DNA of 64,000 nucleotides from an uncultured Nitrososphaeraceae archaeon (GTDB lineage Archaea > Thermoproteota > Nitrososphaeria > Nitrososphaerales > Nitrososphaeraceae), in NCBI GenBank assembly GCA_963825865.1, contig CAWGVG010000022.1, positions 42,050 through 106,049 of the forward strand, read 5' to 3'. Positions 15,356 to 47,189 of this stretch are shown one piece after another. The notes beneath the pieces were generated by a model. The model ran no database searches, was not told the origin of the DNA, and was given only the letters and a program-made list of their open reading frames with translations. Each line of letters begins with the position of its first letter. Position 1 is the stretch's first letter. The translations under genes and the position numbers were made by a program.

Positions 15356-16492
15356 TTAACGTGTGTGATTATATATAGAAGAGTGTGTCCCACCATAAAT
15401 TATCTCCTTTATCATTTCAGAATTTAGAAAATCATGAGGAAAACCCAATTCTATCTTGCTTATTTCATTTAACCTTTGCAATTGCTCATCTGATAATTCA
15501 TATTTTAGACACGCCAAATTATCCTTTATCTGTGATTCTTTCCTTGAGCCAATGATTGGTATTATTTTGCTCTCTCGTGGTAGATTTTGCTGTCTAATCC
15601 AATTCAAAGCAACCTGTGCTGGCGTACATCCAATCTCTTTAGCCGTCTTGCTAACTTCTTCGACAATCAATAAATTTCTCTCATTTAGGAGCGCATTTAC
15701 TAAATCAGGGGACGTAGACTTGAACATATTTAGCCTACTATTGCCTTCTGCCACTGCCACAGTTGATGATAACATATTTTGTTGCTGACGTGGTTGTTGT
15801 TGTTGTTCTTTGTTCTTGTTATACTTACCTGTAAGAAGACCGTTACCTAATGGTGACCACGCTGTCACTCCAATATCCAATGCACTAGCCATTGGCAACA
15901 ATTCGCGTTCTGGGGTTCTTTCAATTAAACTATATTCAATCTGTAAGCCAGTAAATTCAGTCCAACCTCTAAGATTTGCAAGAGTATTAGCTTGTGAAAC
16001 TACCCAAGCTGGAGCGTCAGAGATACCAGCATAGAGAATTTTCCCTGCCTTTATCATATCATCTAAAGCACGCATCATCTCTTCAACTGGTGTCGTTTGG
16101 TCCCATGCATGCACCCAGTAAAGATCTACATAATCCGTATTCAATCTTTGTAGGCTTGCCTCTAAAGATTGCATCATACTCTTGCGATGATTTCCACCAG
16201 CATTAGGATCTCCTCTTCTTGTATTTGATGTATATTTAGTTGCTAAAACAAATCGATCTCTGTCAGATGCGATAAATTCACCAATGTATTTTTCGCTTGT
16301 ACCTTCAGTATATTTGTTAGCAGTATCAATAAAATTACCACCTGCATCTACATACGCATTAAAGATTTTACGACATTCGTCTTTGGATGCACCCCATCCC
16401 CACTCTTCGCCAAACGTCATTGCTCCAAGACAGATTTCTGAAACTCGGAGTCCACTCCTTCCTAATAGATAATACTTCATGAGAAATTTCAC
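15356..16492 (-). CDS. Aldo/keto reductase
   Basis: GLRVSEICLGAM, FIDTANKY, LATK, DYVDLYWVH, WSPLGNGLLTGKY, IPIIG. Confidence 0.92.
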   Translation of the reverse strand: MKFLMKYYLLGRSGLRVSEICLGAMTFGEEWGWGASKDECRKIFNAYVDAGGNFIDTANKYTEGTSEKYIGEFIASDRDRFVLATKYTSNTRRGDPNAGGNHRKSMMQSLEASLQRLNTDYVDLYWVHAWDQTTPVEEMMRALDDMIKAGKILYAGISDAPAWVVSQANTLANLRGWTEFTGLQIEYSLIERTPERELLPMASALDIGVTAWSPLGNGLLTGKYNKNKEQQQQPRQQQNMLSSTVAVAEGNSRLNMFKSTSPDLVNALLNERNLLIVEEVSKTAKEIGCTPAQVALNWIRQQNLPRESKIIPIIGSRKESQIKDNLACLKYELSDEQLQRLNEISKIELGFPHDFLNSEMIKEIIYGGTHSSIYNHTR

Positions 16493-17485
16493 ATGTCGTT
16501 ATAAATAAAAAGTCTTCCTATCAGAAATATCTCAATTAGTCGATATTTTTTTTGCTGAAATACAGACCAGTTGATTAATCTATCTATCCATCTCTAATTA
16601 TCTTTTCCTTACCTACCCTAGTGTTATCTTTATTCTATGCTGATAGCCATATGTCAGCGTATTTCAAAAGTGGCGTTTGGCCAAAGACACTGTGAAAATA
16701 TAAAATGTGTAATGCACTTTAGTAATTCACTAGTGACACAGATATCAAGGAAAAGAACTTTTGCAAAAGATGTAAGATAGTATTGTAAATCACTAGCATT
16801 TCTAGATAAGATTTCTTAGATGTCTCTGTGGGGGAAGGGTACTTTTAACATATGACTGTGACCATCCCATGTGACTGAGTTACATGCTGTAAATAATTTC
16901 AATCTCACGGAGACACATACAAAAAAACTACAATCATACTTTTCGTAATTCTGTAAACAGGATCTGACTTTGTGCGTATTAATTTTCTATTGAGTTCAGT
17001 TTGAAATAAGTGGCAACAGAGGAAAGCAGGTAGTAACAAGGAGGTAGCAGGACTAACAAATTGGTAACATGTGGTAGCAACTTTATCATTCTTTTTGCAT
17101 TTTTTCAACCACATTGTAGGTTTACCTGAAAAGATGCTAAAGATATACCTATTCGTATCGAATCTTGAAGTTGAACCACAAAAAGTAATTTGTGAGTTTT
17201 TTTGTTTGTTTGTACTTTTGAGTCTGCTGAATCATGCGTCAGTATTGAGGTTGAGGGTACGTGTTATTCAACGTGATTATACTTCCAATATTTGATTAGT
17301 TTTTAGCTCCTCTATCCTTAATTGAACTATTTATCGCTTCTAGAGAAAAATCTGCATTCTTATAAATAAATGGAAAACAACTCAGATGTTCCTATAAGAA
17401 TTTAAAATACAAGATGTATTCTCCTGTTTCTAAAATGAAAAATGATTTTCTATCTTTTAAATAATTAAAAAACTTTTTATCTCCA

Positions 17486-17887
17486 CTATGGCAAAGTCAC
17501 ATTAAACAACTTCTTTAGTTGGGAGATGTGGTCTGGATTTATATTTGCCCTAGGCACTCTTTTTATAATCAGTTCCCATGCGTCATAAAAATCCATGCCG
17601 AAATACTTTACTAGAACACCAAGTGCAATAGCATTACTGCGAGAGATTCCAGCTACACAGCATATAACAACCCTGCCGTGTTTTTGAATCAGCTCCCATG
17701 CAAGATCAATCTTCTTGTCATAGTCTTCTAGAGAATTAGAGCCATCATCATATAAATCTCGTACATCAGCTACAGGCCATCTGTCATTTGTTATTCCCAC
17801 AGTTTGATAATCAACGTCTTTTAATTCATGATAACTAAATTCACGTATGCCTTCTGTGGCTAGCTTATTTTCAATTATCTTGAACAT
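17486..17887 (-). CDS. Dual-specificity (CX5R) protein phosphatase
   Basis: VVICCVAGISRSNAIA P-loop and RVPRANINP. Confidence 0.85.
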   Translation of the reverse strand: MFKIIENKLATEGIREFSYHELKDVDYQTVGITNDRWPVADVRDLYDDGSNSLEDYDKKIDLAWELIQKHGRVVICCVAGISRSNAIALGVLVKYFGMDFYDAWELIIKRVPRANINPDHISQLKKLFNVTLP

Positions 17888-17955
17888 AGTCAGTCTAACT
17901 AGTTATTAATGTCAATAACTGTTTTTGTTTGATAATAAATAAGTAGAGATAATTG

Positions 17956-18150
17956 ATGGTAGATAAGTTGGCTTCTAACATTGCTATACGTAGGAACATG
18001 GCTGGTGTTCATTATCGGAGTGATTATGTTGATTCATTGAAATTAGGTGAGCAGATTGCAATAAGCATCTTGGAAGATCAGACTTAAGTATAATGAGAAT
18101 TATAAATTTTCATTTACTGCGTTCAATGTAATGCCAAAGACGATAGGAAA
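17956..18150 (+). pseudogene. Vanadium-dependent haloperoxidase C-terminal fragment
   Basis: KLASNIAIRRNMAGVHYRSDYVDSLKLGEQIAISILEDQ, then YNENYKFSFTAF after a frameshift. Confidence 0.75.
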
Positions 18151-18222
18151 ACTATATAAAAAGGGTTCAATAATTATTTGTCTTTTTTCGTTATCATCTA
18201 TATACCTTCACATATATGCTTT

Positions 18223-18447
18223 TCATCGTTGTTGAGCCATTTTATTATTATCGTCATTATCCTCTTTAAAATGAGGAGCAATCGCCTCTGCGACAAGCTT
18301 AACTAATTTATCTCTGTTGGGACTTGAGTTTGTCAGGACAATCTCAGTGAATCCTAAATTTACATACTTTTGTAATTTTTCCATAGCTTCTTGACCATTT
18401 GATACTACAAGTAGCATATTTTCTAATGTATCATCACCAATAACTTG
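18223..18447 (-). pseudogene. LLM-class (F420-dependent) oxidoreductase C-terminal fragment
   Basis: VIGDDTLENMLLVVSN..EKLQKYVNLGFTEIVL..AIAPHF. Confidence 0.55.
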
Positions 18448-18485
18448 TCATTATTGTCACTCCGATAACTTATATATCTAACTAT

Positions 18486-18731
18486 CTGTGGCAAAAAGAG
18501 ATCGAGCCAAGTAATTCATTAAGAAAATGGTTTGGCCACGACCTGAAGAAATGGAACGAATTCAAACATCGATATTATAAAGAATTAGATAAGAAAAAAG
18601 ATTCAATTGGTATCGTTTTCAGGAATGCGAGAGAAGAAAGATCAGTAATCTTGCTTTATAGTGCAAAAGATGAGAAATTCAACAATGCAGTAGCTTTAAA
18701 GGAATATCTTGAAGAGAAGATGAAAAAGTAG
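18486..18731 (+). pseudogene. DUF488/YeaO family C-terminal fragment
   Basis: LWQKEIEPSNSLRKWFGHDLKKWNEFKHRYYKEL...LLYSAKDEKFNNAVALKEYL*. Confidence 0.75.
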
Positions 18732-18915
18732 AACATAACCTTAGATTCCAACATATAGCCAATCTGTAAGTTATAGATTCTATCTGTAAATTCTCATTCA
18801 GCGAGTCTATAAGTCTTCCAGGTTGATGAAAAAGACGACTATCCTGAAGCAAGTGAAGCCTTCCAAACTTGACCGAAAAGTCTTTAACATTGTTAACGAG
18901 TTATTGGTACCAAAA

Positions 18916-19111
18916 ATGACATTAACCTTGAACTGCAAAGATGCAGGAGAATCCTGTTTGCACGCATACAATGTATGGAGAAACTGAAGAAGAACTATTG
19001 CAAAACGCCAAGAAACATGGTATGGAAGTACATGGCTATACAGAACAATCATGGAATGAAGAAGTTGCAAAGAATGGTGAGCATTTCCGCAAGCTAATAA
19101 AGAAAAACTAG
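18916..19111 (+). CDS. DUF1059 small metal-binding protein (one frameshift)
   Basis: MTLTLNCKDAG..CTHTMYGETEEELLQNAKKHGMEVHG. Close paralog of 46229-46423. Confidence 0.8.
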
Positions 19112-19261
19112 CTAAATCCTTTTTCTTTTTGTTTGTTTGTTTCTGTCTTTTCACTAAATAATTATCTTATAAAATTGAACTCACTTTGGATCGAGGTTAA
19201 TATTATATCTAATATTATATCTTTCTACTTAGTTGTCTGTCACATGCATATAAAAAGAAAC

Positions 19262-19345
19262 ATGAGGTTTGGGTTACAGCACCCAAGCTTTAGTTTCGAT
19301 TACAGCATACAGATACCTCTCAGGTTGTTGATTCCTTAAAGAGCA
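19262..19345 (+). pseudogene. LLM-class oxidoreductase N-terminal fragment
   Basis: MRFGLQHPSFSFDY..SQVVDSLK, truncated where it meets the end of the proteasome alpha gene. Confidence 0.5.
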
Positions 19346-19353
19346 GGTACTAG

Positions 19354-20041
19354 TTAGTTATTTACCAACTTCCTAAATGAACCGTCTTTCAGCTGTGATG
19401 ATTCCTGCCTCCACCAACGGTCTTTCTCCTAATGCTTTTTCTATTGCTTTGTTGCTCAATTGAATCGCTTGGTCAGTCCTCATATCTGCACTATATTCTC
19501 TCTGGATTACATCAAGGGCAATATCTGAATACTGGCCTATTGCAAAGCCAGCTCCTCTAAAGAATGTTCCACTTGGGTCTACTTGGTATAGCTGAATCCC
19601 TGTTTGGTCTATTCCAGCAATTATTATCGATGCTGCCTGCGGCCTTATCGCATATATTGTATAGTTATGCAAGTAAGAACTGAGATGTTTTGCAAGCGAG
19701 CTTATGTCTATTGGGCTTTCATAGGTAAGCCTGTGCTTCTGAGCTCCCAATCTTATCTCGTCAATTAACTGCAATATATCACCTATGTATCCTGAGCCAG
19801 TAGCACCTATATGTCCATCAATTGCAAATATCTTCTCAGCAGGTTCCACTAAGGGTTTGGTAGGCTTGATGTGGCTAGATATCAATGCAAAGGTTGGTGT
19901 TTTTATTCCTATAGTAGTTGAACCTCTACTAACAGCTTCTAAAGCACTATCTACTAGTACCAGCCTACCTTCAGGGCCGTAGTAGTAAGGGTATCTAGTG
20001 TTGTTACCAATACCTCCAGCGCCACCACCCATTTCCGCCAT
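19354..20041 (-). CDS. Divergent 20S proteasome alpha subunit
   Basis: GPEGRL..ALEAVSRGSTTIG, EKIFAID, LYQVDPSGTF, AIG. A probable frameshift at the 3' end would give DGSFRKLVNN* ending at 19354. Confidence 0.9.
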
Positions 20042-20043
20042 TT

Positions 20044-20627
20044 CTAATGAGTCACCTCCTCTTTAACTACTAACAAGTTTGGCATCACCAGTACATCGAT
20101 ACCATTTCCTGATCCTGGGTCTCGTTCCATTGCTGCTGCTACAGCCTTAGTGGCGATTTCTTTTGCCTGTTCATTGGTTATATCCTTGTTGTATACACTT
20201 TCAAGCACTCCATATGCTATGGGAGAACCCGAGCCAGAAGATGCAAAGTCTTCACTAGTTATTGCGCCCTCATATCCGCTGCAAATACATGTCCACCTTC
20301 TCGGTCCACACCAGCCACTAACAATTCTACGAAGTATGGCTGGTAATTCTTAAGACCAGAATATGCAAGGTTTGCAATTAGCCTTGCTGATTCCTTTACT
20401 GTGAGTGGAAACCCCCTACGCACTCCATTAGCCTCCTTTCAGCTTTTGCAACTTTAATCATATACTCCGCATCTGATAGACTGCCCAGCTATCGCTACTG
20501 CAAGAGTATCATCTATCTTTGCTATTTTCTGCGTTATCTTTGAACCTATGAAAAAGCCTTTGCTTGCTCTCTTATCTGATCCAAGTACAACGCCTTCTTT
20601 TGTTTTAATGCCAACTATTGTTGTCAT
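20044..20627 (-). CDS. Divergent 20S proteasome beta subunit (frameshifted, absent from ORF track)
   Basis: MTTIVGIKTKEGVVLGSDKRASKGFFIGSKITQKIAKID..AIAG, ELLVAGVD, ASSGSGSPIAYGVLE, AMERDPGSGNGIDV. Confidence 0.9.
20048..20060 (-). promoter_or_regulatory. Shine-Dalgarno site of the alpha subunit gene
   Basis: GGAGGTGA about 10 nt upstream of the alpha ATG, inside the last codons of the beta gene. Confidence 0.7.
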
Positions 20628-20879
20628 TCTCTATTTTTCCCTAACTCCTGTAATACCATAGGAAAGATAAGCATTAATTGACTAGGATTTGCAGAAGTAA
20701 GTCACACATATACACATGTAGTAGTGGTGAAATCGCTATTGTGAAGGCCTCGACATTGGCTATGCTTGGCTCCAAAAGTAATCATGACAAAGGATGACCA
20801 TCTTTGCTGAGTGTATGTGTCTGCATATATGATAATCATTGCAAACTGTTAGTCACAAACTTTCTCCTGCAGGAATTAA

Positions 20880-21230
20880 TGCCAAATTAATCAAGAAGAT
20901 TGACTGCGTATTCTCGTTCAGCGATTCTAGGAGTTTCATATCTGTAAGCTTCAGCATATCAACATCTGGGCTGGCGTTTTTCCGTAGTTCTTTGCTACCG
21001 CCAGGATATTTGGGTGGTTAAGCTTCTTACCTATGGGCTGCGGTCTGTAAGCTTCCAGCTAAATCCTGTTCTTCTCGCAGAAACGTAATAAATCCTCCGG
21101 CTATAGAAATGGTTGAAATTCTACCGTTCACTGCAGGCACAACATCAGAGTTCCAAAGGATCTCTTCCAGCTGGTCTATCGGGTAATCACTCACCCCAAT
21201 CGCCCTGGCTTTACCCTCATGCAATATCTG
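20880..21230 (-). pseudogene. Aldo/keto reductase (2,5-DKG reductase-like) fragment with internal stops
   Basis: EGKARAIGVS..VVPAVN, VEFQPFL*, LEAY, AKNYGKTPAQ. Confidence 0.75.
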
Positions 21231-21452
21231 AACTTAGCCTGTCATGTCTCTAGACCAAGCTAACTTGCTAGACCTAGCCTTGCAATGACCAGTGGGATCC
21301 ACATAGGCCAAACTCAAGAATCAGCAAGAATATGCGTGTATAGTTTGGCTTTGTATTCCTCTATTCATTTAGCACACAAAGCAATTTAATTTGTAAAGTA
21401 TAACTGTGACAAATCCTGTCGCACCTTGCCCAGAATCTCTGTTACCTTGTCA

Positions 21453-21690
21453 TTACTGGTTGTTTTTAAATGACATAGTCGGAGTCATCTTCATCAAGGT
21501 GTCTATTGTCTTTATCATCCCTTTGGCCAGGTCTTCTGCAGAGTAGGTTCTACTCAACAAATTAAGATATGTCTCTCCAACATTTAAGATATCGTTCTCA
21601 GTTAAACCAAGTTGGAAAAGTTTCGTTAGCATGTTACCTACGAAGGGACCAGCCCCAAGAATCTGCAACATATTTTCTCGCTTCTCCTTG
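21453..21690 (-). pseudogene. C-terminal fragment of hypothetical protein
   Basis: Short ORF with no convincing start context. Protein-like helical composition. Confidence 0.3.
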
Positions 21691-22188
21691 AGTATCTCTT
21701 GCCGAGCCTACAGTGATTATTACATTTTCCAATTTATACTTTGAATCATATGTCATAGTTGATGCAATAGGAAAATTATGTCAGATAATAATGATAAACA
21801 AGAAGAACACGATGAAATGATTCCATTTTTTAGCATCAGCTTCTAGAGACTTTGATAAAGATCTGATTATTAAACCTGATTTTAACATTCTAGTAGGTTG
21901 TACTTTTGGCTCTAAGAGCACTACAAGTCCATGAGTAAAGATTCTTCCTGCAGTTATCTTTATGAGCTGCCAGACCCATTTTATCTAATTCGTTTGTAAA
22001 ATGCTGGTTCATGAGTGTTGTTCTTAATTTGAGTCGTCCTGTTTCGTTCTCTTTATCCAGGCTTTTTATATCGATGCCTATTATTTCTATCTTCTTACGC
22101 CAAGAAGAAGTTGATATTGACGCCTATAAGAATAATTCATATTGCGCGACCTATCTATCCCAATTTGTTACATAGGTAATTTTTAATA

Positions 22189-22347
22189 ATGATCCAAGAA
22201 GACGAAAGATGTCCAGTATGTAATCAATGCTTTCCAAATGTTCCTGATCACATCAGCAATGTGCACGGAATTGATATAAACCTGGCAAAGTGGATATTAC
22301 GATTGCAAGCTAGGATAGAATCCTTGGAAACACATGAGAAAAAATGA
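22189..22347 (+). CDS. 52-aa C2H2-type zinc-finger microprotein (below ORF-track cutoff)
   Basis: MIQEDERCPVCNQCFPNVPDHISNVHGIDINLAKWILRLQARIESLETHEKK*, with CxxC-x9-HxxxxH and a coiled-coil-like tail. Confidence 0.55.
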   Translation: MIQEDERCPVCNQCFPNVPDHISNVHGIDINLAKWILRLQARIESLETHEKK

Positions 22348-22577
22348 CATGTCATATCATCGATTGCCAGATATGTTGAACAATATATGCAATATATATA
22401 CATGTAAATATATGCATGCCTTATATTGTTTGTATATATATACATTTATATATATATTGAACATACTGCTAGAATTCGTATTGGAAGAGGACCAAATGCA
22501 ACCAACTTTTGATAATTCATCTATATGTTATTCCAGCATCCCTTCAGTTCATTTATTTCTTAAAAATCTTTAGATGG

Positions 22578-22733
22578 TTGGAATGTCTTGGAATCGATTT
22601 GGAATGGAAAAAAATATTGGAATGATTTAATGATTACCTCATGTACCTATTTACTCTTTTCCAAATGCTTTCCAAACAGTTTTCCAAGCTTTTCCAAGGC
22701 TTTTTGTTGGAAAAATAATTATTCCAGTTGGAA
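22578..22733. repeat. Inverted array of TTGGAA/TTCCAA repeats
   Basis: TTGGAA at 22578, 22588, 22599 and 22617. TTCCAA at 22659, 22670, 22682 and 22692. Further TTGGAA at 22707 and 22728. Confidence 0.85.
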
Positions 22734-23163
22734 AAAATAAAATGTTTACTGCTAGTATTACTTTAGTTTACATACGGAGTAAAAGTAATACAGAATGACA
22801 TGTATACTTTAGTAAACTAAATAAAAAATGTAGAGATTATCTATTAATCCCAATTACTTATGTCTTTATTAGTTCGTCAACCTTTGTCTGGAAGATTCCA
22901 ATCTTTTGTTCCAGTCAATTCATTTACGATTTTATCCCTATTTTGTTTTTTCTTTGTCATTTATGTTTTGTTTCACCTCAAGTATTCAATGAATTACCAG
23001 TTAGCGACCAGAAGAAATTTCTGTTTCAGCTTTGGAATACAATTATAAAGAATTATGAAATGATTCATGGTGCACAACTTTCAAATTCATTTATTCTCTT
23101 AATGCTCAATGAAGCCAAGGATGCCAAAGTCCCAGAACTTGGGACTGTGGGTCTCAGAGAAGA

Positions 23164-23290
23164 GAGCAGATTATCAAATTTCTAGATACGAAAATTAAAA
23201 CCATCGAAGAAGATCCTGATGCGAGATGGATTACTACATGGAATCATTACATAAGCCGTATAAAATATTTTTTTAGATGGCTCTATAATG
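23164..23290 (+). pseudogene. Tyrosine recombinase/integrase N-terminal (core-binding) fragment
   Basis: EQIIKFLDTKIKTIEEDPDARWITTWNHYISRIKYFFRWLYN resembles the TxNxYxxxxKxFFRWL helix of integrase core-binding domains. Confidence 0.6.
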
Positions 23291-24146
23291 CATATAGTAA
23301 GAAAAATTCGGAAAGTTTTTCTGCTGCTTCGCACATAATGACCGAATACAACAGTAACAACCTTCTATGTATTGTCAAAGGGCGCCGGTACCCCCTTTTG
23401 TTGCACTTAGGATTAATTAGAAAGTAACAAAAACTGAACATGTACACCGCCTCATTCCTCTTTTAACCAAAGAGAGATAGGAAAACCTCTTTTCTGCTGA
23501 ATGATTGCAACAGTATATAACAAATCTTCTAAAGAGGAAAGAGAAATATTATTCAAGTATTCAAAAGGCCATTATCTTCTTGGACAGATTTTCCTTTATC
23601 AACAATTTATTCATAATGTAATCTTAGGAAAACCTAAGGATCTTGTAAACTCTCTCTCTTGATTAGTATTATAATTTCATCTTCTATTGTGTCTTTGTGT
23701 GGTACTTGTGGCAATAGTCTCCTGATGGTAACTTCGGTTGTGATGATAATGGAAAGAGATGAGGAGGACAATCAGGCTACAGTTTGACAGTCATTTTACC
23801 ATCTGCATCCATTCGGTAAGCCAGTGAATATACGGATAACAACGGCAAATGGATATACAGACTTTATGATTATGCTTGATTTTTATCGCCAAGGTTGTTG
23901 CTTGAGTAGTGATTCTTGATTGCAACAGAAGAACAGATATCAAACATGAGTCTATCTTTTCCTTTATGTCTTTATATTTTAATGGAAACAAACAAATGCA
24001 AATTTCCTATGATATGGTAACGGATCATGAACCCGAAACATTTAACGTTGATATTCTGATTGGCCATGAGTTGGGCATATCTGAATCTTATTGGCTCATA
24101 CAAAGAAGTATGTGCACAGTCTATTGACAATAAATGGAGTGGCTTT

Positions 24147-39661: not shown

Positions 39662-41433
39662 ATCGCTAAGTACCAGGATAACTATTTTAGCATTACATGT
39701 ATTTTGATTTGGGTCTTTAAAAATGACCCCGGACCATATCTACCAAAACAACCGACAAAGACCCTCAATATCTCTTCCTCAGGTAGGAGGCATGACTCTA
39801 TCTACTACCATCTAGGGGCTCTTTTGCTTCAGGAAAAGTAACCATTTATCTACTTTCTCGCCAATTGTTTTTGTCATTGAACATTTTCTCTTCTCTCCTT
39901 CCTCTTCTTGCATAGTCATTCATTCTATATCGGTTCATCAGCTGGCGGCTTTGCGCTTGAAGCGGCGTCTTTGGTGTTTCATTTTGATGACTAACCATGT
40001 TTCTGTCTACTACCATCCATATGCGATTGAATTAATAGAGCTATTTTCTTATCTATGAATAATACTTGCAATATAGGATCAAACCATTTCTCCGTTTCTA
40101 TGTTATTTATCCATTAGGCGTTTATCAGCCCAGTTTCAAAGTGATTTTATTTTACGAAAGATTTTGTAAGTAAATATGGATCTTGACAATTTGTTGGCTT
40201 CATGAATCTGTGTGCTAAAAATTGGATAGAAGTTCTTATGCTCGTTGACTGCCTAGGGAAAAGGGAGATCATTTGAAGGAGCGTTACCCGGAGCATTGCC
40301 TGAAGGAGAAATAACGGGTTTACTGCAAGATGGTGTTTGTCACATTTCCTATCAGAGCACCACCACTAGGGGCGCTAGTATTAGAACTTGTACCGGGTTT
40401 GGTGAAGGTGCCTGTCGAGGCGGCACAGGAGCTTGCGTTCATGGTTGAGCTGATGCAGATGACGATGGCACAGAAGAAGCTCTAGCATTTGTTAAGATAG
40501 GAGTTGCGGCCATATTATTCTGTGCATTCTACTACATAGGTGCTCCCAAATAATAGAGTTATTTCTATTGCAATACGGCGACACTTTCCAGACATGTCTG
40601 GGTAACTGAAACTGGACATTACGTGTTTTGACTTTCCTTTCCTCGTTTTGTCCTCACCTTTTCCATCTTGTTTGCAATTCTTTCTTACTCACACGATTGC
40701 TGTCTCCTTTCAATATCTTGCACTCTTGCTGTCAAAACCATAAGCTGATCTGATAGCCGTGCTATGGCATCATCTTTAATCTTGTCACGATTTCTCAATG
40801 ATCTTCTGATAAATGCTGAATCTCAAGGAAATAGATCATTAAGCTTAAGTGTCTTAATACAATAAGACTTGACTCTTTAGTCCTTCATGGGTGACAAAAT
40901 TGAGTCGAATTTGTTCTGAATCGGCAGCTGCCTTTCATGTACTGATAAAGACCTGAATTATTTTATTTATCACTTTTTATCTTCACTGACAAGGTTACTG
41001 CTGCGTTTGCAGATTCTTGAATATGATCCCTAGATTCGGTTACAGACATTATAAGTTTCATGTTTTCTGATTTTCTTCTAGTCACGTTCACATACGCTTC
41101 AAATCCTATCAACTTCTACTACTAGCAGAAGCAGGAAATTTAGGGCAGCGATCTATCTATCTATTTATCTTTAAGACAACTTGAGACAAAAGGCCTATAA
41201 TGCAGGTCTGGAAAAAAGCAACTCTCAAGCAGATTACCTAAAATCACAAGCAAACAACAAGCCATAAACTCGTTTTCAATGATAATCATCTTTCTATCAT
41301 ATACAGATAGAATATCTTCGCCATTTGATGTCAAGTCTCATCAATATGACTGAAACTGAGAGAATAGAGGATTCGGAAGTTCTACACTTTGCTTTCTCTG
41401 AATGAACGTTCAAGAAAATAAAATGTTAGAAAC

Positions 41434-41634
41434 TCAAGCCATTTGTCGTGGTGCTAACTGCGATGGTGGTTGAGTATTCAGAGCATTTGGAACGTTTGGA
41501 TTTACATTTGGGGCTGCCGTACCACTACTTGTGTTAGGGCATGCTTGAGCTGATTGAATAGCAACACTACCTATCACTACAAACGCGCTTGCAAACACTA
41601 ACGCTAGAGCAGCTATTAGAACTGTTTTATTCAT
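41434..41634 (-). CDS. Small secreted peptide/protein
   Basis: Signal peptide MNKTVLIAALALVFASAFVVIGSVAIQSAQA, followed by a P/N/S-rich tail. Confidence 0.6.
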   Translation of the reverse strand: MNKTVLIAALALVFASAFVVIGSVAIQSAQACPNTSSGTAAPNVNPNVPNALNTQPPSQLAPRQMA

Positions 41635-41790
41635 TAGAAAATATCCTCGATTATATTATATAAAGGATTTGGTGGTAAATAGGAAACTAATAAAGCCAAG
41701 CTAATATTGTTTTTGACTTTTATCGAGCCCAAATATCATGTCAAATTTGATTCACATACTCTTGTGAATATGCAAATACCCATTGAGGGA

Positions 41791-41970
41791 TTAGTTTTGC
41801 TGTGATGATGATTCCAACATTTTTGCTTTATTAAAACACTCTTGGGCAGCCTTTTCTACGCCTAACCTAGAAAGACAATTACCTTTCTTTTTCCATGTAT
41901 ACGCGTCATTTGGATCTATCTCCAAGCAGTTATCATAACATTCTATAGCTTGTTTGTATTCGCCTAGCAT
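41791..41970 (-). pseudogene. TPR repeat protein (short or fragmentary)
   Basis: LGEYKQAIECYDNCLEIDPNDAYTWKKKGNCLSRLG...AQECFNKA. Confidence 0.7.
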
Positions 41971-42208
41971 GTTAAGTTATTGTCTTTTTCGTTCATAATA
42001 TCATGCCACTTATCTGTCCTAACAAGACTTTGAAGGCATTATATACTATTCAATTTTGGAAAGTTTTACAGAGCTATGATTAAGATGCTTATACTGATTT
42101 TGTTAGCTGAAGTAACGCCTCGCCGTAACGTGGTCTTATGAGTTCAAATATGCTGCTTGACGCATCTGACGGCGCATTTGAGCTAAAGCAATGTGTAGTT
42201 AGGTTTAA

Positions 42209-42514
42209 TCATGGAATAGAAATACCTACAGCCTTTAATTGATTGATTACGTAGCTCACCTCAGCTGCAGTAACTCTTGTTATCGTAGAATTCTTTCTAT
42301 GCTGCAGCATTGCATTTACAAGTTGAGATATCATTTCTGCATCATAAAAAGCGTTAGATTCAGACAGTAATTCTGCCACTTTAGGTACATCGGTATTGCT
42401 AGTTATCTTTCCACTAGTTATTAGCCCGCCAAACTTCTGAACTGATTCATATACTCCAATATTATATGCTATGAAAGCAATCTTTTCAGGAGGTAGAATA
42501 TCAATAGACTCCAT
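42209..42514 (-). CDS. Hypothetical protein
   Basis: 101-aa ORF with ATG start and protein-like composition. Confidence 0.65.
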   Translation of the reverse strand: MESIDILPPEKIAFIAYNIGVYESVQKFGGLITSGKITSNTDVPKVAELLSESNAFYDAEMISQLVNAMLQHRKNSTITRVTAAEVSYVINQLKAVGISIP

Positions 42515-42622
42515 AATACATCTAACTGATAATAGTCTGTATCATCTATACTTTATCCCGTTTTTCCCATAGTATAATCAATAAATACAAACTACATATT
42601 TTATACAAACTTACATGATATA

Positions 42623-42915
42623 ATGCCTTCCAAACTTCCTGATAGTGTTAAGTTACTAGTGGTACAACAATGGCTAACTGGTGCACAAAGGGATAAAATC
42701 GCAGCTGATAATGGCCTTAGCGTTGGAGCTGTAACAAAAAGTCAACGAATGGAGACATGCATTAGGTTTTTCTGCAGCAGACGAATTAAGGGAGCTGGCT
42801 GTTACATTAAAGAAAATTGGTATATCTGCTGCTCAATGTGCTCTAGGTTTCAGAACTGCAATGACGATGAATAGGTTAGGAGTAAAAGAGGATAACTTTG
42901 AACCATTTATGTCAT
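42623..42915 (+). pseudogene. HTH / coiled-coil protein N-terminal fragment
   Basis: VVQQWLTGAQRDKIAADNGLSVGAVT (HTH), then after a frameshift ELRELAVTLKKIGISAAQCALGFR. Confidence 0.55.
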
Positions 42916-42929
42916 CATTGTCGCTGTTA

Positions 42930-43265
42930 CCAAGATTCCATTTCTTTATAAGCTGATTATTCGCAATTGTGAAAGAATCTTGCGACATGATATAGTCAGA
43001 CTGATGGTTGAGTCTAAGGAAATAATACTTTCTATTAGGTGCGCCCAGATGGCTCTTTTCTTCATATGTTTTAAAAGCCTCCCTCTTCTAGCGCTTGTAT
43101 GTGGCGCAATATGGATTGTTGGCCTATTCCTATCTCCTTTGCTAACTGGTTAAACTACATCGGTTCCTCTGAGAAGAGCTGAGAGTATTTTTCGCCGGGT
43201 TACGTTACCAAGAACATCTAAAATAAAATTAGGGTTTATTTTTTTGTTATTTTATCTGCAATCAT
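42930..43265 (-). pseudogene. ArsR-family winged-helix regulator (degraded)
   Basis: ILDVLGNVTRRKILSAL, FNQLAKEIGIGQQSILRHIQALEEGG, GAPNRKYY. Contains stops and frameshifts. Confidence 0.7.
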
Positions 43266-43430
43266 TACAAATGCGAAGTTAACTATGTTAAGTAACATTC
43301 AAAAGATAAATGAACGGGTTGAGTTTTAACTATTTGGGAGTGATTAGGTAATATTATTAAATTCATAAGAAAAAGAATAAAAAATCCATTAACAACAGCA
43401 GCGGATGACAGCAGGAATAATGGTGGTAGT

Positions 43431-43700
43431 TTGAATTCTAAAGTAAAACAGATTATTATTTTAGGCATAATCCTATCAGTAATCGGTATTGCTGGTGCGA
43501 TTTATTACGGATTGCAATTTGTAAAAGAAGAAGTAAATGCAGGCGGGACGTTTCCCTATACTACGCCATCTCAAGTCAAAAACATATCACCTATAGACTT
43601 GGAAATAGTATTTGTCTTTGTCATGTTGGTAGGATTTGGAATAGTCACCTATGGATTCGTTGAAAGAGTAGATAAACCATTTGATTCATATCCAACATAA
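43431..43700 (+). CDS. Small two-TM membrane protein
   Basis: Two hydrophobic segments in an 89-aa ORF. Confidence 0.6.
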   Translation: MNSKVKQIIILGIILSVIGIAGAIYYGLQFVKEEVNAGGTFPYTTPSQVKNISPIDLEIVFVFVMLVGFGIVTYGFVERVDKPFDSYPT

Positions 43701-44157
43701 ATATGCATTTCGTAATCACTTGTAGTTGCTGCGAGCACCAGAAACATAGAATGACTAACCTTTTCTCATTGGTGATGATTTCTACTGAGCCACCTTAAAT
43801 GTAGTTGTACCAGCAAGCTCTAATTCTTGTCATACGATATTTATCAATTAAATTCTCTGCCAGTCTTAGAACTGATGAATAATTATCAATCTGTTTATAT
43901 CTTCTTCTGTATCTTTTGCAGTTGCTAGCTTTGATATTTTTATACAATTCCTTTACATCTTTACTCCCATTTTTCCATACTGATTAAGCTATTTGTACCG
44001 CAATGCTCGGAGGTAATTTTTGCATAGCCTCTTCATTGAATTTTATATGGTAAAACATTTCTGTAAAGGTTCATAGCTTAATGACATAGAATGCAGACGA
44101 AATTAACAAATTGAAAAGAGCTGTAATGCGAGCTGCACAGATTCTTGTTCTTTCTAT

Positions 44158-44493
44158 CTAAATCGCCTCTTCATTTTCTGCACCTGATTCGATGTCAATT
44201 GCACGTGCAATTGGCCAGATAAAGATCTTTCCCATTTTTAGAATTTGCTCTTATGATATTGATTGTATCCTTTTCTTTATCGTCAGGTACGACCACTTCA
44301 AGTTTGTATTTGTCACCAAATTCGGGCGTGTACATTTCTGTTCCTTTAGAGGCGTGGAGTTTCTCTGCAATAGTCTTACCTCTGCCTTTGACTTTTAAAT
44401 AGTAATGCCGCCAACGTTAATCTTTTTCAAAGCATCACTAATGCGTTTGACGTCGTTTTGAGGAATTATTACAGCTATTTAGACAAGTAGCAT
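44158..44493 (-). pseudogene. P-II family nitrogen regulator (early stop and a frameshift)
   Basis: ISDALKKINVGGIT, VKGRGK, T-loop LHASKGTEMYTPEF, KLEVVVPD, GKIFIWPI..AIDIESG.ENEEAI*. Confidence 0.85.
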
Positions 44494-44984
44494 ATCTTTT
44501 AATCTTTTATATTAAAAAATAGTGGTTTATTTGTAATAAAAATGAAAAACTACTTATATTTACTTAGATGATACCAATTGATTGTTCATCGGTTGCTCCG
44601 GATGCTTCTTTTCTATCTTTATCTAATTAATTTTGTGATGATTGTCTCAATCTAAAGATGCAACCTCTTAGCATTGAGCTGGGCTATTAACAGTCAGAAA
44701 GACAAGTCCAGTATAACAAGGATTGAAACTTTACTGACCCAGTATTAATGCAGAGTAAAAAAAGGTAGAAAGAGCTAACCCTGTATTATCGTGACAGATA
44801 CGCATTGATCTAATAGTTGCGCAATAAGATTATCAGAAAGTCGATCTATTCGAATTGTCTTGAATCGTCAGGAATAAAATAATGTCTCATTTAATCACAT
44901 AAAAATTGATAGATAGAAGATTTTTTCTAAATTAAGTATTTTAATATTTTTATGTCGGGCGTAGAATCTCTAATATATAGTAGT

Positions 44985-45543
44985 ATGTATCCACAGAAGT
45001 CTCCTGGCTGGCTTAGGGCTGTACAAATAGGTTTAGGAATTCTAACTATCGCTCTATCTATATTCGCTCTGGCATTTCCAGGCGCACCTATATTTCAGAT
45101 TATTTGGTTACTTGCATAGTATTATTCTTTGTTGGAATAGAAGAAATTATCGTTGGGATATTTTCACCTAGAAAGTCCAGATGGTCAATCTATAGGACTT
45201 GGGATACTTGTTCTTATTTTTGCAGGTATAGCAATGTCTTTCCCTGTTGCAGCAGCTATAACTATAATTATATTCATTGGTATTGCTTTTCTGATTAATG
45301 GTATTGCTAGAATAATAGAAGGGTTCTCAGGTAAGCATTCTGGTATATCACGAGCATTTCTGATCGGAGTAGGAATCTCTGGCTGTAGTACTTTCCGTTG
45401 CTGTGCTGGTATCTCCATTTTTTGGTGCAAGACTAGCAGGAACCATAATTGGAATAGGTCTTCTTGTAACTGGAATCCAAATGATTTTCGCAGGAATTCA
45501 AGGAAGACGTGCACAAACCGCCGGCAGCGATATTACCAGATGA
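44985..45543 (+). CDS. HdeD/DUF308 membrane protein (frameshifted)
   Basis: SPGWLRAVQIGLG, repeated TM hairpins FP..A, GIARIIEG, GIQMIFAG. Confidence 0.75.
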
Positions 45544-45649
45544 ATAAATTTTAATAGCTCAGAACAGCATTACGAGTAGACCAGTTCTTGCCAGAAATGT
45601 ATATTATATCATTTATATCTTTTTTACCAACTGAACTATTTTTTGAATA

Positions 45650-46030
45650 AGTCCTAAAGTGGAGCCAGTATGATAGCATGTAGATAATATCAAAGTACAT
45701 CTGAATTTGGGCAGAGCTCCTACTATAGAATTTCTTCCTAGCCCAATTGATGGAGACAGCCCCTGGCAACTATACGGGTTGCTGCTGAACGAATGCAATG
45801 AGGCAGGCTAGAAAACTAGAGCAGACTTTAGGCATTGAAATCTGCAGACTCGATATAGAAACAGGTGCAGAATGGGTAGTTTACGACCCAATAGCTAAGC
45901 TTATCTGTGAATACAATGGTCAGATAACAGTAGACGGGTTAGCAAAGATTAATGCTTCAAAGCCTTCTCGTAGAGGTGAAATAGATTACTTTGACCCAAG
46001 GTTTGCTGCAGAATATATCACTATTAGCTC
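45650..46030 (+). pseudogene. Fragment of uncharacterised protein, possibly mobile-element replication related
   Basis: KVHLNLGRAPTIEFLPSPIDGDSPWQLYG.. joined by frameshift to EWVVYDPIAK..KINASKPSRRGEIDYFDP. Lies directly upstream of a repeat array. The function is a guess. Confidence 0.35.
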
Positions 46031-46076
46031 TGTTAGAGTCTGTATGAAAAAACTGCACAATGGTTCATTTATTCAT

Positions 46077-46153
46077 CGTCAAATAATGCGTCAAATGAGT
46101 CAATAAGCAGTCAAATAGCTCGTCAAATACGCCGTCAGATCAGTCAAATAGCA
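46077..46153 (+). repeat. Tandem phased GTCAAAT array
   Basis: GTCA(A/G)AT-like units at 46078, 46090, 46099, 46110, 46122, 46134 and 46143. Confidence 0.85.
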
Positions 46154-46228
46154 TATTTGAACTCAAAAGACCGTATAACGACATGGTGTTACGCCAGATA
46201 ACAAATCCAATACCAGAATGCCAAAAAA

Positions 46229-46423
46229 ATGACATTGAGCCTAAACTGCAAAGATGCAGGAGATCCTGTTTGCACCCATACAATGTACGGAGAGACTGAA
46301 GAAGAACTGTTGCAAAATGCCAAAAAACATGGTATTGAGGTCCATGGATATACAGAAGAGTCATGGAATGAAGAGGTTTCTAAGAACAAAGATCATTTGA
46401 GTAAACTTATAAAAAGAACATAA
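46229..46423 (+). CDS. DUF1059 small metal-binding protein
   Basis: LNCKDAGDPVCTHTMYGETEEELLQNAKKHGIEVHG. Confidence 0.85.
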   Translation: MTLSLNCKDAGDPVCTHTMYGETEEELLQNAKKHGIEVHGYTEESWNEEVSKNKDHLSKLIKRT

Positions 46424-46700
46424 AATTTCCTCACCCTCTTCTTTTTTATTCAAAGTGATTATCATAATGCCTTATCATCAATATTGGCTAACTTACCATA
46501 GAGTTCAGTTATAGCGAATCTGTTTTCTAATAATCGGTGAAGACGTTAACCTCTTGCCACTCGTAATTACCCATAAGAGACAAATGCAAGTATCCAAAAA
46601 ATGTTACTGATCTCCTGACGATATAGATTCTCATTTGGAATCGATTGATTATTGCAATGTTTATTTATTTCTGTAACTTTCCAGAATAAGCCTAATAATA

Positions 46701-47189
46701 ATGAAAAAAGGATTGCAGAAGAAAAGACGAGTAATAACTGCTATTGTCGGTATATCTATAATTTCGATTGTCATATATTTAATTGTCATTCTACAATTAC
46801 AAAATATTAGAAGTCAATCGTTTATAGAATCGTTTGAAAGCCTAGTTTCCAAAGCGCATATGCTTACACAAAGCTACCAAAGAGAGGTTGGAAAATGGCA
46901 GGCAAAACTCTATGACAACAAAACTATGATTTCAATTACAAATGATTATTTGCCAAAGTATAAACTCTTAGTTAATGAATCTAAAACACTTAGTCCTCCT
47001 ACCAAACAACATCAAAACGCTGTAGAGTTATATACAAAGAGCATTGAGGCGGAATTAGAGAGCAATATCGATTTTCTCAATTACTTATCCACGGGTAATT
47101 TGGCGAAAAATGAAACCTCTTCCAGATTATTATCAGATGCTTTAAGATATGAAACTGATTCATTTGCTGCTTTTAAATCAGCCAGATAA
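46701..47189 (+). CDS. Membrane-anchored helical hypothetical protein
   Basis: Basic N-terminus, one TM helix and a helical external domain. Confidence 0.7.
   Translation: MKKGLQKKRRVITAIVGISIISIVIYLIVILQLQNIRSQSFIESFESLVSKAHMLTQSYQREVGKWQAKLYDNKTMISITNDYLPKYKLLVNESKTLSPPTKQHQNAVELYTKSIEAELESNIDFLNYLSTGNLAKNETSSRLLSDALRYETDSFAAFKSAR

What the first reader, a model, noticed from the sequence alone, without database searches (positions are those of the whole stretch)
19354..20660. Accessory, divergent beta-alpha 20S proteasome operon
Seen: a beta gene (20627-20044) and an alpha gene (20041-19354) lie 2 nt apart, with a GGAGGTGA site before alpha, amid pseudogene debris. Known: archaeal housekeeping psmA usually sits in the exosome/SBDS superoperon apart from psmB, whereas adjacent beta-alpha order is typical of actinobacterial prcBA. 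Inference: this is a second, self-contained proteasome core that could assemble independently of the housekeeping one.
Basis: partly seen in the sequence, partly recalled or inferred. Interest (0 to 1): 0.78.

Follow-up and report, generated by a model that had tools for sequence, protein, structure and literature searches.

The report
Second, regulated proteasome gene pair
This soil archaeon carries, besides its ordinary proteasome genes, an extra beta-alpha proteasome gene pair that belongs to a conserved and apparently undescribed family found in several archaeal phyla, and the breaks seen in it here are most likely assembly errors.

Summary
A beta gene (20627-20044) and an alpha gene (20041-19354) lie 2 nt apart on the minus strand. 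They carry four single-base indels, three in beta and one in alpha. The genome also has a canonical alpha and two canonical betas on other contigs, so the pair is accessory.

The indels are probably assembly noise. Frameshifts run through this genome's conserved genes at 0.40 per kb, ribosomal protein L4 included. Contigs from three other studies, over 99% identical to the window, have the lengths and gap counts expected if all four indels are absent.

The pair is archaeal in type, not actinobacterial. In a joint tree it forms its own alpha and beta clades, apart from the canonical subunits. The same pair occurs in Nitrososphaeraceae, Nitrosotalea, Caldarchaeum, Methanomethylicia, Marsarchaeota and soil Thermoplasmata.

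Three family traits stand out. Beta starts M-T-T with no propeptide and keeps all catalytic residues in 73 of 73 cases. A TGAC-N18-GTCA palindrome lies 54-79 nt upstream of beta in 84 of 96 loci. A MarR-like winged-helix gene usually lies just upstream, though not in this window.

Separate assembly and regulation by that protein are inferred, not shown.

The parts
20677..20705 (-). Inverted repeat GTGACT-N16-AGTCAAT (TGAC-N18-GTCA core), a candidate operator. Its TGAC starts 77 nt upstream of the beta ATG.
   Evidence: one match in the window, 0.03 expected; the core motif lies within 150 nt upstream of beta in 84 of 96 distinct loci, against 43 of 4279 control windows; it is the only one of 3 strict matches in the whole genome that lies next to a proteasome gene.
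20673..20679 (-). A/T-rich AATTAAT box overlapping the right half-site. Possible TATA element of the beta-alpha promoter (inferred).
   Evidence: GTCAAT(T/A)AAT is conserved next to the right half-site in most loci. Its role as a promoter element was not tested.
20044..20627 (-). Accessory proteasome beta gene. It starts M-T-T, with no propeptide. It is interrupted in this assembly by single-base indels near 20480 (extra), 20423 (missing) and 20269 (missing).
   Evidence: A stop codon lies two codons upstream of the ATG. Intact orthologues are 191-197 aa.
20052..20059 (-). GGAGGTGA, a Shine-Dalgarno-like site for alpha, inside the 3' end of beta.
   Evidence: One copy in the window is what chance gives, so only its position supports a function.
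19354..20041 (-). Accessory proteasome alpha-type gene. It is open for 222 codons to 19373. One extra base near 19390 shifts the last 11 codons (KDGSFRKLVNN), so the true stop ends at 19354.
   Evidence: two metagenome proteins of 228 aa are 98% identical over 218 aa; one ends in the out-of-frame tail that the window encodes and the other differs from it by one residue.
19252..19288 (-). Hairpin followed by the T-tract TTTCTTTTT, about 65-100 nt downstream of the alpha stop. Possible transcription end (inferred).
   Evidence: Read. One search lists the same stem (19263-19292) on the plus strand only. Weak evidence.

Best explanation
The locus is a two-gene operon for a second, paralogous 20S-type proteasome core. 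It has a catalytically complete beta subunit made without a propeptide, and a divergent alpha subunit. Both are archaeal in origin.

The operon belongs to an old family that is inherited, and now and then transferred, as a unit. That unit is: upstream palindrome, beta, alpha, and in most lineages a MarR-like winged-helix gene directly upstream.

Most likely mechanism, all inferred:
1. The winged-helix protein binds the TGAC-N18-GTCA palindrome, which abuts the A/T box of the promoter. This keeps beta-alpha under conditional control, probably repression.
2. Once transcribed, beta loses its initiator Met and exposes Thr1 without any autocatalytic maturation.
3. The two subunits assemble with each other into an alpha-beta-beta-alpha barrel.
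4. The gate of that barrel differs from the housekeeping particle, because Tyr8, Asp9 and Tyr26 are replaced. The Lys of the activator-docking pocket is kept.

The four frameshifts in the window are errors of this assembly, or at most private to it. They are not decay of the operon in the population.

My odds: accessory, distinct, functional family 0.95. Frameshifts not real in the population 0.9. Own particle rather than hybrid 0.55. Control by the winged-helix protein through the palindrome 0.6.
For: Accessory status:
- The genome has 9 PF00227 matches, including a canonical alpha (C60) and canonical betas (C14, C3).
- Five other genomes that hold the pair each have a canonical alpha, two canonical betas and the adjacent accessory pair.
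- Five more, reached through named loci, also have canonical subunits plus the pair.

Archaeal type:
- NCBIfam scores are given.
- The best solved relative of beta is an archaeal beta (1j2q/6he5, E 8e-42).
- The best solved relatives of alpha are proteasome alpha subunits, eukaryotic and archaeal, at E about 1e-34.

Distinct clades:
- Tree of 113 rows: accessory alpha SH-aLRT 100, accessory beta 99. The internal order is largely the same in both halves.

Selection:
- Accessory beta is 55-81% identical between five lineages. The two canonical betas are 41-57% and 42-66%.
- T1, D17, R19, K33, GSGS and RDxxSG are kept in 73 of 73 betas.

Linkage:
- Beta lies directly upstream of alpha in 79 of 80 named loci. 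An M-T-T start is seen in 73 of 80.

Cis element.

Winged-helix partner:
- It lies in 20 of 24 loci, mostly directly upstream and co-oriented.
- It lies upstream on the same strand within 2.5 kb in 45 of 80 loci.
- Its fold matches MarR-family proteins: Z 12.2, rmsd 1.4, 69 residues aligned.
- Among 41 relatives: both pair and gene 16, pair only 2, gene only 6, neither 17.

Alpha features:
- The Lys equivalent to K66 of the Thermoplasma alpha chain is invariant in 16 of 16 sequences. Y26 is replaced by Ser in the window.

Frameshifts as errors:
- 22 frame changes in 55 kb of conserved genes, in 19 of 59 genes, one of them ribosomal protein L4.
- The canonical betas of this genome are also broken.
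- Records from runs X15, X2 and X4 (three studies) are over 99% identical to the window and match the indel-free version. Over 19186-20128: 942 against 943 bases, 1 gap. Over 20116-20743: 629 against 628, 3 gaps. Over 19289-20467: 1180 against 1179, 3 gaps. Over 19640-20408: 770 against 769, 1 gap.
- An intact 228-aa alpha exists at 98% identity.
Against: - No experiment or expression data were available. Assembly, activity and regulation are all inferred.
- The locus holds 4 indels in 1.27 kb, about eight times the 0.40 per kb measured in conserved genes. Local decay in this one strain cannot be fully excluded.
- One search did not print the positions of the gaps inside the pair. Its indel table was cut, with 51 rows not shown. 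The match rests on gap counts and net lengths.
- None of the 120 beta homologues listed was near-identical to the window's beta. So there is no protein-level proof of an intact beta in the same population.
- In this genome the winged-helix gene is not next to the pair. Homologues lie on contig C15, and one of them is broken.
- Six relatives have that gene without the pair, and two have the pair without it.
- The palindrome is not generally upstream of the winged-helix gene itself (2 of 18).
- The deep position of both accessory clades is unresolved (support 42 for beta). The origin is therefore open.
Confidence: 0.6

Rival explanations
1. The accessory subunits do not build their own particle. 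They are swapped into the housekeeping 20S, giving hybrid or alternative proteasomes. Paralogous alpha or beta subunits are reported to do this in some euryarchaea, and immunoproteasome subunits do it in vertebrates (recalled, not checked here).
For: Every genome examined that has the pair also has canonical subunits. The fold family is the same, and alpha keeps the invariant Lys of the activator pocket. A condition-dependent promoter would suit subunit exchange as well.
Against: Alpha and beta are inherited together in 79 of 80 loci and their subtrees are largely congruent. This is what mutual dependence predicts. A beta without a propeptide and an alpha with a changed N-terminus are both altered at parts that, from general knowledge, take part in assembly with canonical partners. 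This is not decisive.
Confidence: 0.25
2. The operon is a decaying pseudogene pair in this organism, lying in a degraded stretch of the chromosome.
For: There are four frameshifting indels in 1.27 kb. ORF cover is only 0.19 in window 16001-24000. The indel density is above the average for conserved genes.
Against: Near-identical contigs from three other studies fit the indel-free version. At three neighbouring sites (21475, 21837, 21970) runs X1, X2 and X15 hold contigs that lack a base the window has; at 21837 and 21970 all the laid depth does, at 21475 only part of it in X2 and X15. Essential genes such as ribosomal protein L4 are also frameshifted in this genome. Between the indels the sequence stays 80-90% identical in protein to orthologues, with all catalytic residues intact.
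Confidence: 0.07
3. The two proteins form some other oligomer, such as a beta-only double ring capped or regulated by the alpha-like protein, with a specialised role as a peptidase rather than as a general proteasome.
For: The lack of a propeptide is shared with the single-subunit homologues HslV, Anbu and BPH (recalled). The alpha N-terminal gate motif is degenerate in the window's lineage. Both subunits fall below the NCBIfam equivalog cut-offs.
Against: Both align end to end with archaeal alpha and beta of solved 20S particles. The most basal members (Methanomethylicia) keep the canonical YDR...QVEYA alpha motif. HslV models score only 20-27 bits.
Confidence: 0.08
4. The pair was acquired from actinobacteria as a prcBA operon.
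For: Only the beta-then-alpha gene order.
Against: The bacterial beta model scores 76 bits against 211/202 for the archaeal one. The bacterial alpha model has no match to alpha. No Pup-ligase family gene was found in this 82%-complete genome. Both clades sit among archaeal sequences.
Confidence: 0.02

Closest known systems
Canonical archaeal 20S proteasome (PsmA/PsmB; solved for Thermoplasma, Archaeoglobus and Methanocaldococcus)
   Same: Same Pfam family. Full-length alignment to solved alpha and beta chains. The catalytic set Thr1, Asp17, Lys33, GSGS and RDxxSG is present. The alpha Lys equivalent to K66 is kept.
   Different: Separate clades. Scores fall below the NCBIfam equivalog cut-offs. 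No beta propeptide. Alpha has two small deletions, a shorter C-terminus and, in this lineage, a changed N-terminal motif. The genes are adjacent, whereas the canonical genes are unlinked. The pair has its own conserved palindrome.
Actinobacterial PrcB-PrcA operon with the Pup system
   Same: Beta-then-alpha adjacent gene order.
   Different: Weak sequence affinity. No Pup-ligase family gene found. No long beta propeptide. The linked gene is a winged-helix protein, not pup, dop or mpa.
Paralogous proteasome subunits of other archaea (second alpha of haloarchaea, second beta of Thermococcales, inactive beta of TACK archaea); recalled, not checked in a paper here
   Same: Extra subunit genes beside the housekeeping set. 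This genome also has the TACK-type second canonical beta with Ala-Thr in place of Thr1.
   Different: Here a complete alpha-plus-beta set is duplicated, kept as one operon, spread over several phyla, and forms clades outside all canonical subunits sampled.
HslV, Anbu and BPH, the single-subunit proteasome homologues
   Same: Translation starts directly at Met-Thr1, with no propeptide (recalled for these families).
   Different: HslV models score 20-27 bits against cut-offs of 137-158. An alpha partner is always adjacent. The passages I read of the Anbu paper (PMC5666114) and the Connectase paper (PMC7980362) describe no such archaeal pair.
CCTF1, an ArsR-family repressor of the proteasome activator PAN in Sulfolobales (PMC13736083; abstract and outline read)
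   Same: A winged-helix transcription factor that binds a palindrome in the promoter of a proteasome-system gene in Thermoproteota.
   Different: It targets PAN, not core subunits. Its site is described as an AT-rich palindrome. It has no known link to a second core. Any relationship to the winged-helix family here was not tested.

Membership tests
Archaeal proteasome beta subunit (Pfam PF00227; NCBIfam TIGR03634 equivalog) | Pfam Proteasome domain | tested here: met
   the three window pieces score 46.6, 23.7 and 33.0 bits against a cut-off of 22.4.
Archaeal proteasome beta subunit (Pfam PF00227; NCBIfam TIGR03634 equivalog) | Score at or above the equivalog cut-off (224 bits) | tested here: not met
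   intact orthologues score 211.2 and 202.4 bits.
Archaeal proteasome beta subunit (Pfam PF00227; NCBIfam TIGR03634 equivalog) | Catalytic residues Thr1, Asp/Glu17, Lys33 and the Ser129/Asp166/Ser169 motifs | tested here: met
   73 of 73 accessory betas. Searches show them in the window's own pieces.
Archaeal proteasome beta subunit (Pfam PF00227; NCBIfam TIGR03634 equivalog) | N-terminal propeptide removed by autolysis | tested here: not met
   The window has a stop two codons before ATG-ACA-ACA. An M-T-T start is seen in 73 of 80 loci. The palindrome lies 54-79 nt upstream of that ATG.
Archaeal proteasome beta subunit (Pfam PF00227; NCBIfam TIGR03634 equivalog) | Branches with the canonical betas of the same organisms | tested here: not met
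   separate clade, SH-aLRT 99.
Archaeal proteasome alpha subunit (NCBIfam NF003075 / TIGR03633) | Score at or above the curated cut-offs (219 and 287.35 bits) | tested here: not met
   164.7 and 156.3 bits for the window protein; 168.5 and 196.0 bits to NF003075 for two orthologues.
Archaeal proteasome alpha subunit (NCBIfam NF003075 / TIGR03633) | N-terminal alpha motif (YDR ... SPxGRL.QVEYA) that forms the gate | tested here: not met
   the window has NTRYPYYYGPEGRLVLVDSA. Arg, Pro and GRL are kept. Tyr8, Asp9 and Tyr26 are replaced. The Methanomethylicia members of the same family keep YDR/YER and QVEYA.
Archaeal proteasome alpha subunit (NCBIfam NF003075 / TIGR03633) | Lys of the activator (HbYX) pocket, K66 in the Thermoplasma chain | tested here: met
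   One search aligns window K70 with chain residue 66. It is invariant in 16 of 16 sequences of alignment A1. The role of this Lys is recalled.
Actinobacterial PrcB/PrcA | Sequence membership (TIGR03690 and TIGR03691 cut-offs of 191.9 and 139.05 bits) | tested here: not met
   beta scores 75.7/76.0 bits. Alpha has no match at E <= 0.001.
Actinobacterial PrcB/PrcA | Pupylation genes (Pup ligase/deamidase family PF03136) in the genome | tested here: inconclusive
   no match, but the genome is 81.76% complete.
HslV | Score at or above the TIGR03692 / NF003964 cut-offs (157.75 and 137 bits) | tested here: not met
   19.7-27.2 bits.
MarR-type winged-helix regulators (for the linked upstream gene, which is not in the window) | Winged helix-turn-helix fold | tested here: met
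   model pLDDT 89.7. Z 12.2, rmsd 1.4, 69 residues aligned to 6pco_A, with many MarR-family chains at Z 10-12. Pfam MarR scores 25.3 and 26.9 bits (cut-off 24.6) in 2 of 4 members scanned.
MarR-type winged-helix regulators (for the linked upstream gene, which is not in the window) | Binds a palindromic operator as a dimer | not testable with these tools
   The palindrome was found. Binding is inferred only.

The most novel reading that the evidence does not exclude
The window holds one copy of an undescribed, ancient 'second proteasome' system of archaea. A dedicated winged-helix regulator, through a TGAC-N18-GTCA operator conserved across phyla, switches on a self-contained 20S-type particle. 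That particle would be built from a propeptide-free beta and an alpha with a remodelled gate. It would serve as a conditional (stress or starvation) protease, and it has moved between soil Nitrososphaerales and soil Thermoplasmata by gene transfer.
Probability: 0.35. Interest if true: 0.8.

Novelty: new variant of a known kind. Interest (0 to 1): 0.62.

Why it matters
Archaeal proteasomes are the textbook simple model: one alpha and one or two betas. A complete second alpha-beta set would add a layer to archaeal protein quality control, because it is conserved under strong selection in ammonia oxidisers, methanogens, hot-spring Caldarchaeum and soil Thermoplasmata.

It comes with its own operator and a linked regulator, and it needs no propeptide processing. 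That offers a natural experiment on how proteasome assembly, gating and maturation can be rewired.

It is also easy to test. Intact orthologues exist in cultured Nitrososphaera and Nitrosotalea.

For genome scanning, the case is a warning. Apparent pseudogene fields in an assembly can be indel noise.

Tried and rejected
- Regulon search. The strict operator pattern gave 3 hits in the whole genome, and mononucleotide shuffles gave 1-6. So no regulon beyond the pair is shown.
- Autoregulation. The palindrome lies upstream of the winged-helix gene in only 2 of 18 loci.
- Hairpin reading of the palindrome. By eye on the instances, the inner positions are not consistently complementary. I prefer a protein-binding site. 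No formal covariation count was made.
- Homodimer of the winged-helix protein (complex prediction). No verdict, score 0.00. This is not evidence either way.
- C-terminal domain of the winged-helix protein. The model has pLDDT 90.6. Foldseek found nothing at E <= 0.001. The best VIA-align Z values were 9.5 (6m1u_A, rmsd 2.5, 92 aligned), 9.3 (1vjh_A) and 8.0-8.6 (KA1 domains, cytokinin-binding protein, phosphoglucomutase domain 4). This is a common beta-alpha-beta4-alpha arrangement, and no function can be drawn from it.
- Synteny. Apart from the winged-helix gene, no neighbour is shared across lineages. Those scanned were IscS/IscU-like, metallo-beta-lactamase, Lrp/AsnC, a THUMP methyltransferase and DUF6512. 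The window's own flanks share nothing with 11 relatives' flanks beyond the pair.
- Run X1 did not cover the pair, so it says nothing about it.
- Literature. Searches found no description of this pair, nor did the passages read. The library lacks most subscription-journal papers. The genome papers of cultured Nitrososphaera species were not among the hits.
Of the ORFs of 200 aa or more near the canonical alpha of one relative, I scanned six. These were PurK-like, SAICAR synthetase, redoxin-like, an RNA methyltransferase, and ribosomal proteins L3 and L4. No exosome gene was among them. This was not followed further.
- CRISPR. There is one CRISPR-DR7 match at 44693-44729, but no repeat family in 40000-48500.
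Full report
**What is in the window**

On the minus strand a beta-type gene runs from ATG 20627 to TAG 20044. After two bases, an alpha-type gene runs from ATG 20041. All pieces match Pfam PF00227. GGAGGTGA sits 10 nt before the alpha start, though one such octamer per window is also what chance gives.

Beta is split into three open pieces, and the last 11 codons of alpha are out of frame. DNA alignment with three orthologues places exactly four non-triplet indels:
- about 20480, one base extra in the window
- about 20423, one base missing
- about 20269, one base missing
- about 19390, one base extra

The first two lie about 57 nt apart and compensate each other. Only about 20 codons, with two stops, are misread there.

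**Are the breaks real?**

The whole genome is poor in long ORFs. About half of it is covered by ORFs of 100 aa or more, against 0.52-0.86 in ten stretches of a complete relative.

I queried 122 ORFs from that relative. Of these, 59 had a best match in this genome at 50% identity or more. Among the 59, 19 show at least one frame change: 22 changes in 55 kb, or 0.40 per kb. One of the 19 is ribosomal protein L4. The canonical beta genes of this genome are also broken near their ends. An organism cannot live with that, so most of these breaks are errors of the assembly.

The stretch is held by 19 public runs of 9 studies, all soil or rhizosphere metagenomes, and none holds more than 0.81 of its words. 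I laid four runs. X1 did not cover the pair. Records of X15, X2 and X4 (three studies) differ from the window by 2-6 letters per 630-1180 bases. Their gap counts and net lengths are exactly those expected if they lack all four indels:

| Window span | Record length vs window length | Gaps |
|---|---|---|
| 19186-20128 | 942 vs 943 | 1 |
| 20116-20743 | 629 vs 628 | 3 |
| 19289-20467 | 1180 vs 1179 | 3 |
| 19640-20408 | 770 vs 769 | 1 |

The table of indel positions was cut, so the positions themselves were not printed. One of these runs could be the window's own sample, but its contigs are still a separate assembly. At three nearby sites (21475, 21837, 21970), runs X1, X2 and X15 hold contigs that lack a base the window has; at 21475 these carry only part of the laid depth in X2 and X15.

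Two metagenome proteins of 228 aa are 98% identical to the window's alpha; one ends in the tail that the window encodes out of frame, and the other differs from that tail by one residue. No near-identical beta protein was among the 120 listed.

The locus has more indels per kb than the average conserved gene, so a private defect of this strain is not excluded. I put it at under 0.1.

**Accessory and distinct**

The genome has nine PF00227 matches:
- a canonical alpha on C60
- a canonical active-type beta on C14
- a second canonical beta on C3, with Ala-Thr where Thr1 should be
- the pair in this window
- a further beta-like fragment beside an integrase on C14
- one weak match

The window's alpha scores 164.7 bits to the archaeal alpha model (cut-off 219). 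Intact orthologues of beta score 211 and 202 bits to the archaeal beta model (cut-off 224), against 76 to the bacterial one. Alpha has no match to the bacterial alpha model. The best solved relatives are archaeal beta chains for beta and proteasome alpha subunits, eukaryotic and archaeal, for alpha. No Pup-ligase family gene was found in this 82%-complete genome. The parallel with actinobacterial prcBA is therefore gene order only.

I built a joint tree of 113 alpha and beta sequences. They came from the window, from unnamed and named genomes, and from 19 unlabelled library representatives. Accessory alphas form one clade (SH-aLRT 100) and accessory betas another (99). Both lie outside the canonical alpha, active-beta and second-beta clades of the same genomes. 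The deeper placement is unresolved (42 for beta). Within one genome, the accessory subunits are 33-46% identical to the canonical ones.

**Distribution**

- Orthologues of alpha at 53-91% identity, each with a beta just upstream, occur in 18 of 41 genomes of the window's order, counting the window's own (14 of 24 other genomes of its family).
- In an even sample of the phylum, 27 of 401 genomes have a match at E <= 1e-45. They fall in four families. Names tie these to Nitrososphaeraceae, Nitrosotalea, Caldarchaeum and Methanomethylicia.
- A scan of named species genomes returned 80 loci (the best of 223). These add soil Thermoplasmata, Methanomassiliicoccales and a Marsarchaeota genome.
- All ten genomes checked in full have canonical subunits as well.

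In both halves of the tree Methanomethylicia are basal. Thermoplasmata and Nitrosotalea nest among Nitrososphaerales-type sequences. This suggests transfer of the whole unit, but I ran no formal test.

**Family traits**

Beta lies directly upstream of alpha in 79 of 80 named loci. It shows an M-T-T start in 73 of them. The rest are cut by contig ends or may use another start codon. In the window, a stop two codons upstream excludes any leader.

All 73 full betas keep T1, D17, R19, K33, GSGS and RDxxSG. Accessory beta is better conserved between lineages (55-81%) than either canonical beta (41-66%). Accessory alpha is somewhat less conserved than canonical alpha.

Alpha keeps the invariant Lys that aligns with K66 of the Thermoplasma chain. 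It has two short deletions and a shorter C-terminus. In the window's lineage it has lost Tyr8, Asp9 and Tyr26 of the gate cluster, while the Methanomethylicia members keep them. The roles of these residues are recalled from the literature on the Thermoplasma proteasome.

**A conserved upstream element and a linked regulator**

The sequence GTGACY-N16-RGTCAAT(W)AAT stands 54-79 nt upstream of the beta start. The TGAC-N15-19-GTCA core is present in 84 of 96 distinct loci, with a spacer of 18 in 75 of them. The other 12 have near variants. Among control windows of the same loci, 43 of 4279 have the core. In the window it lies at 20705-20677 (0.03 expected).

The right half-site abuts an A/T box that may be the TATA element. 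This is the geometry of an archaeal repressor site, but that reading is inference.

A third gene family accompanies the pair:
- It is present in 20 of 24 loci first examined, mostly directly upstream of beta and on the same strand.
- It lies upstream on the same strand within 2.5 kb in 45 of 80 named loci.
- It has weak Pfam matches to MarR and ArsR-type helix-turn-helix families.
- Its model is confident (pLDDT 89.7).
- Its N-terminal domain matches MarR-family chains (Z 12.2, rmsd 1.4, 69 residues).
- Its C-terminal domain has a common beta-alpha-beta4-alpha fold with no telling match.
- The language-model atlas lists its nearest clusters only as hypothetical or helix-turn-helix proteins of archaea.

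In the window's genome this gene is not next to the pair. Two homologous stretches lie on contig C15, and one is broken. Across 41 relatives, the pair and the gene occur together in 16, the pair alone in 2 (87% and 79% complete), the gene alone in 6, and neither in 17. These genomes are kin, so the association is suggestive only.

The palindrome is rarely upstream of the regulator gene itself. No further copies next to other genes stood out in this genome.

**How it most likely works**

Shown:
- a complete, selected, co-inherited alpha-beta set with an intact active site
- no propeptide on beta
- a conserved palindrome at the promoter
- a frequently linked winged-helix gene

Inferred:
- The winged-helix protein binds the palindrome and makes expression conditional.
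- Beta becomes active once Met is removed and the ring assembles, with no maturation step.
- The two subunits build their own 28-mer rather than mixing with canonical ones.
- The altered alpha N-terminus changes gating.
- The kept pocket Lys allows docking of the Cdc48-type ATPases. This genome has several, and none reaches the PAN cut-off.

**Comparison with what is known, and novelty**

Public annotation already calls these genes proteasome alpha and beta subunits, or hypothetical proteins. The genes themselves are therefore not new.

I found no paper that treats them as a separate system. I ran seven searches. I read passages of the Caldiarchaeum genome paper, of a Nitrososphaera physiology preprint, and of the Anbu and Connectase papers. 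The library misses most subscription-journal papers, and supplements were closed.

The nearest regulatory precedent I found is CCTF1. It is an ArsR-family repressor of PAN in Sulfolobales that binds an AT-rich palindrome (abstract and outline read).

I rate the locus a new variant of a known kind. Interest is moderate to high for people who work on archaeal proteostasis.

Noticed in passing
window 16001-24000 and 40001-48000: ORFs of 100 aa or more cover only 0.19 and 0.18 of these two stretches, against 0.46-0.64 elsewhere in the window. In the first stretch, independent contigs show many single-base differences in length, which points to indel noise of the assembly. The second stretch was not examined.
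   Followed up: partly
window 21475, 21837, 21970: At each site, contigs in runs X1, X2 and X15 lack one base that the window has; at 21475 they carry only part of the laid depth in X2 and X15. The gene on the minus strand here is cut into several short ORFs, including an aldo-keto-reductase-like fragment at 21027-21224 as judged by eye.
   Followed up: partly
window 17489-17887 (-): An intact 133-aa ORF matches the dual-specificity phosphatase catalytic domain (PF00782, 43.7 bits).
   Followed up: partly
window 44693-44729 (+): A single match to the CRISPR-DR7 repeat model, just over its gathering score (38.6 against 37 bits). No repeat family was found in 40000-48500. It may be a lone repeat, a chance hit, or an array blurred by indels.
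   Followed up: partly
G000:C14:153182-153358 (locus L007:1498-1932, +): This is a further beta-like gene. It starts M-T-T-V-V-A, and only its first 60 or so residues match PF00227 (48.1 bits). It lies head to tail with a tyrosine-recombinase-like ORF, as judged by eye. It may be a proteasome homologue carried by a mobile element, and it may be broken.
   Followed up: partly
G000:C15:164396-165040 (+) and C15:99968-100614 (-): There are two copies of the winged-helix gene, with nearly identical sequence upstream for more than 250 nt. The second copy is frameshifted. This is either a duplicated segment or an assembly duplication.
   Followed up: no
G000:C3:130601-131138 (-) and its counterparts in relatives (L058, L060, L064, L067, L070): The second canonical beta of these archaea has Gly-Ala-Thr where active betas have Gly-Thr-Thr. 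It is probably the inactive beta type of TACK archaea (recalled).
   Followed up: no
L089 (a Thermoplasmata genome, second contig) and G015:C185:9871-10050: One Thermoplasmata genome has an extra accessory alpha with no beta upstream. One close relative has a 60-residue alpha fragment with two TGA stops. These look like stray or decayed extra copies.
   Followed up: no
L071 and L075 (Methanomethylicia-like loci): Here beta appears to have a short leader before T-T (a few residues ending in Leu). Alternatively it starts at a non-ATG codon right before Thr1.
   Followed up: no
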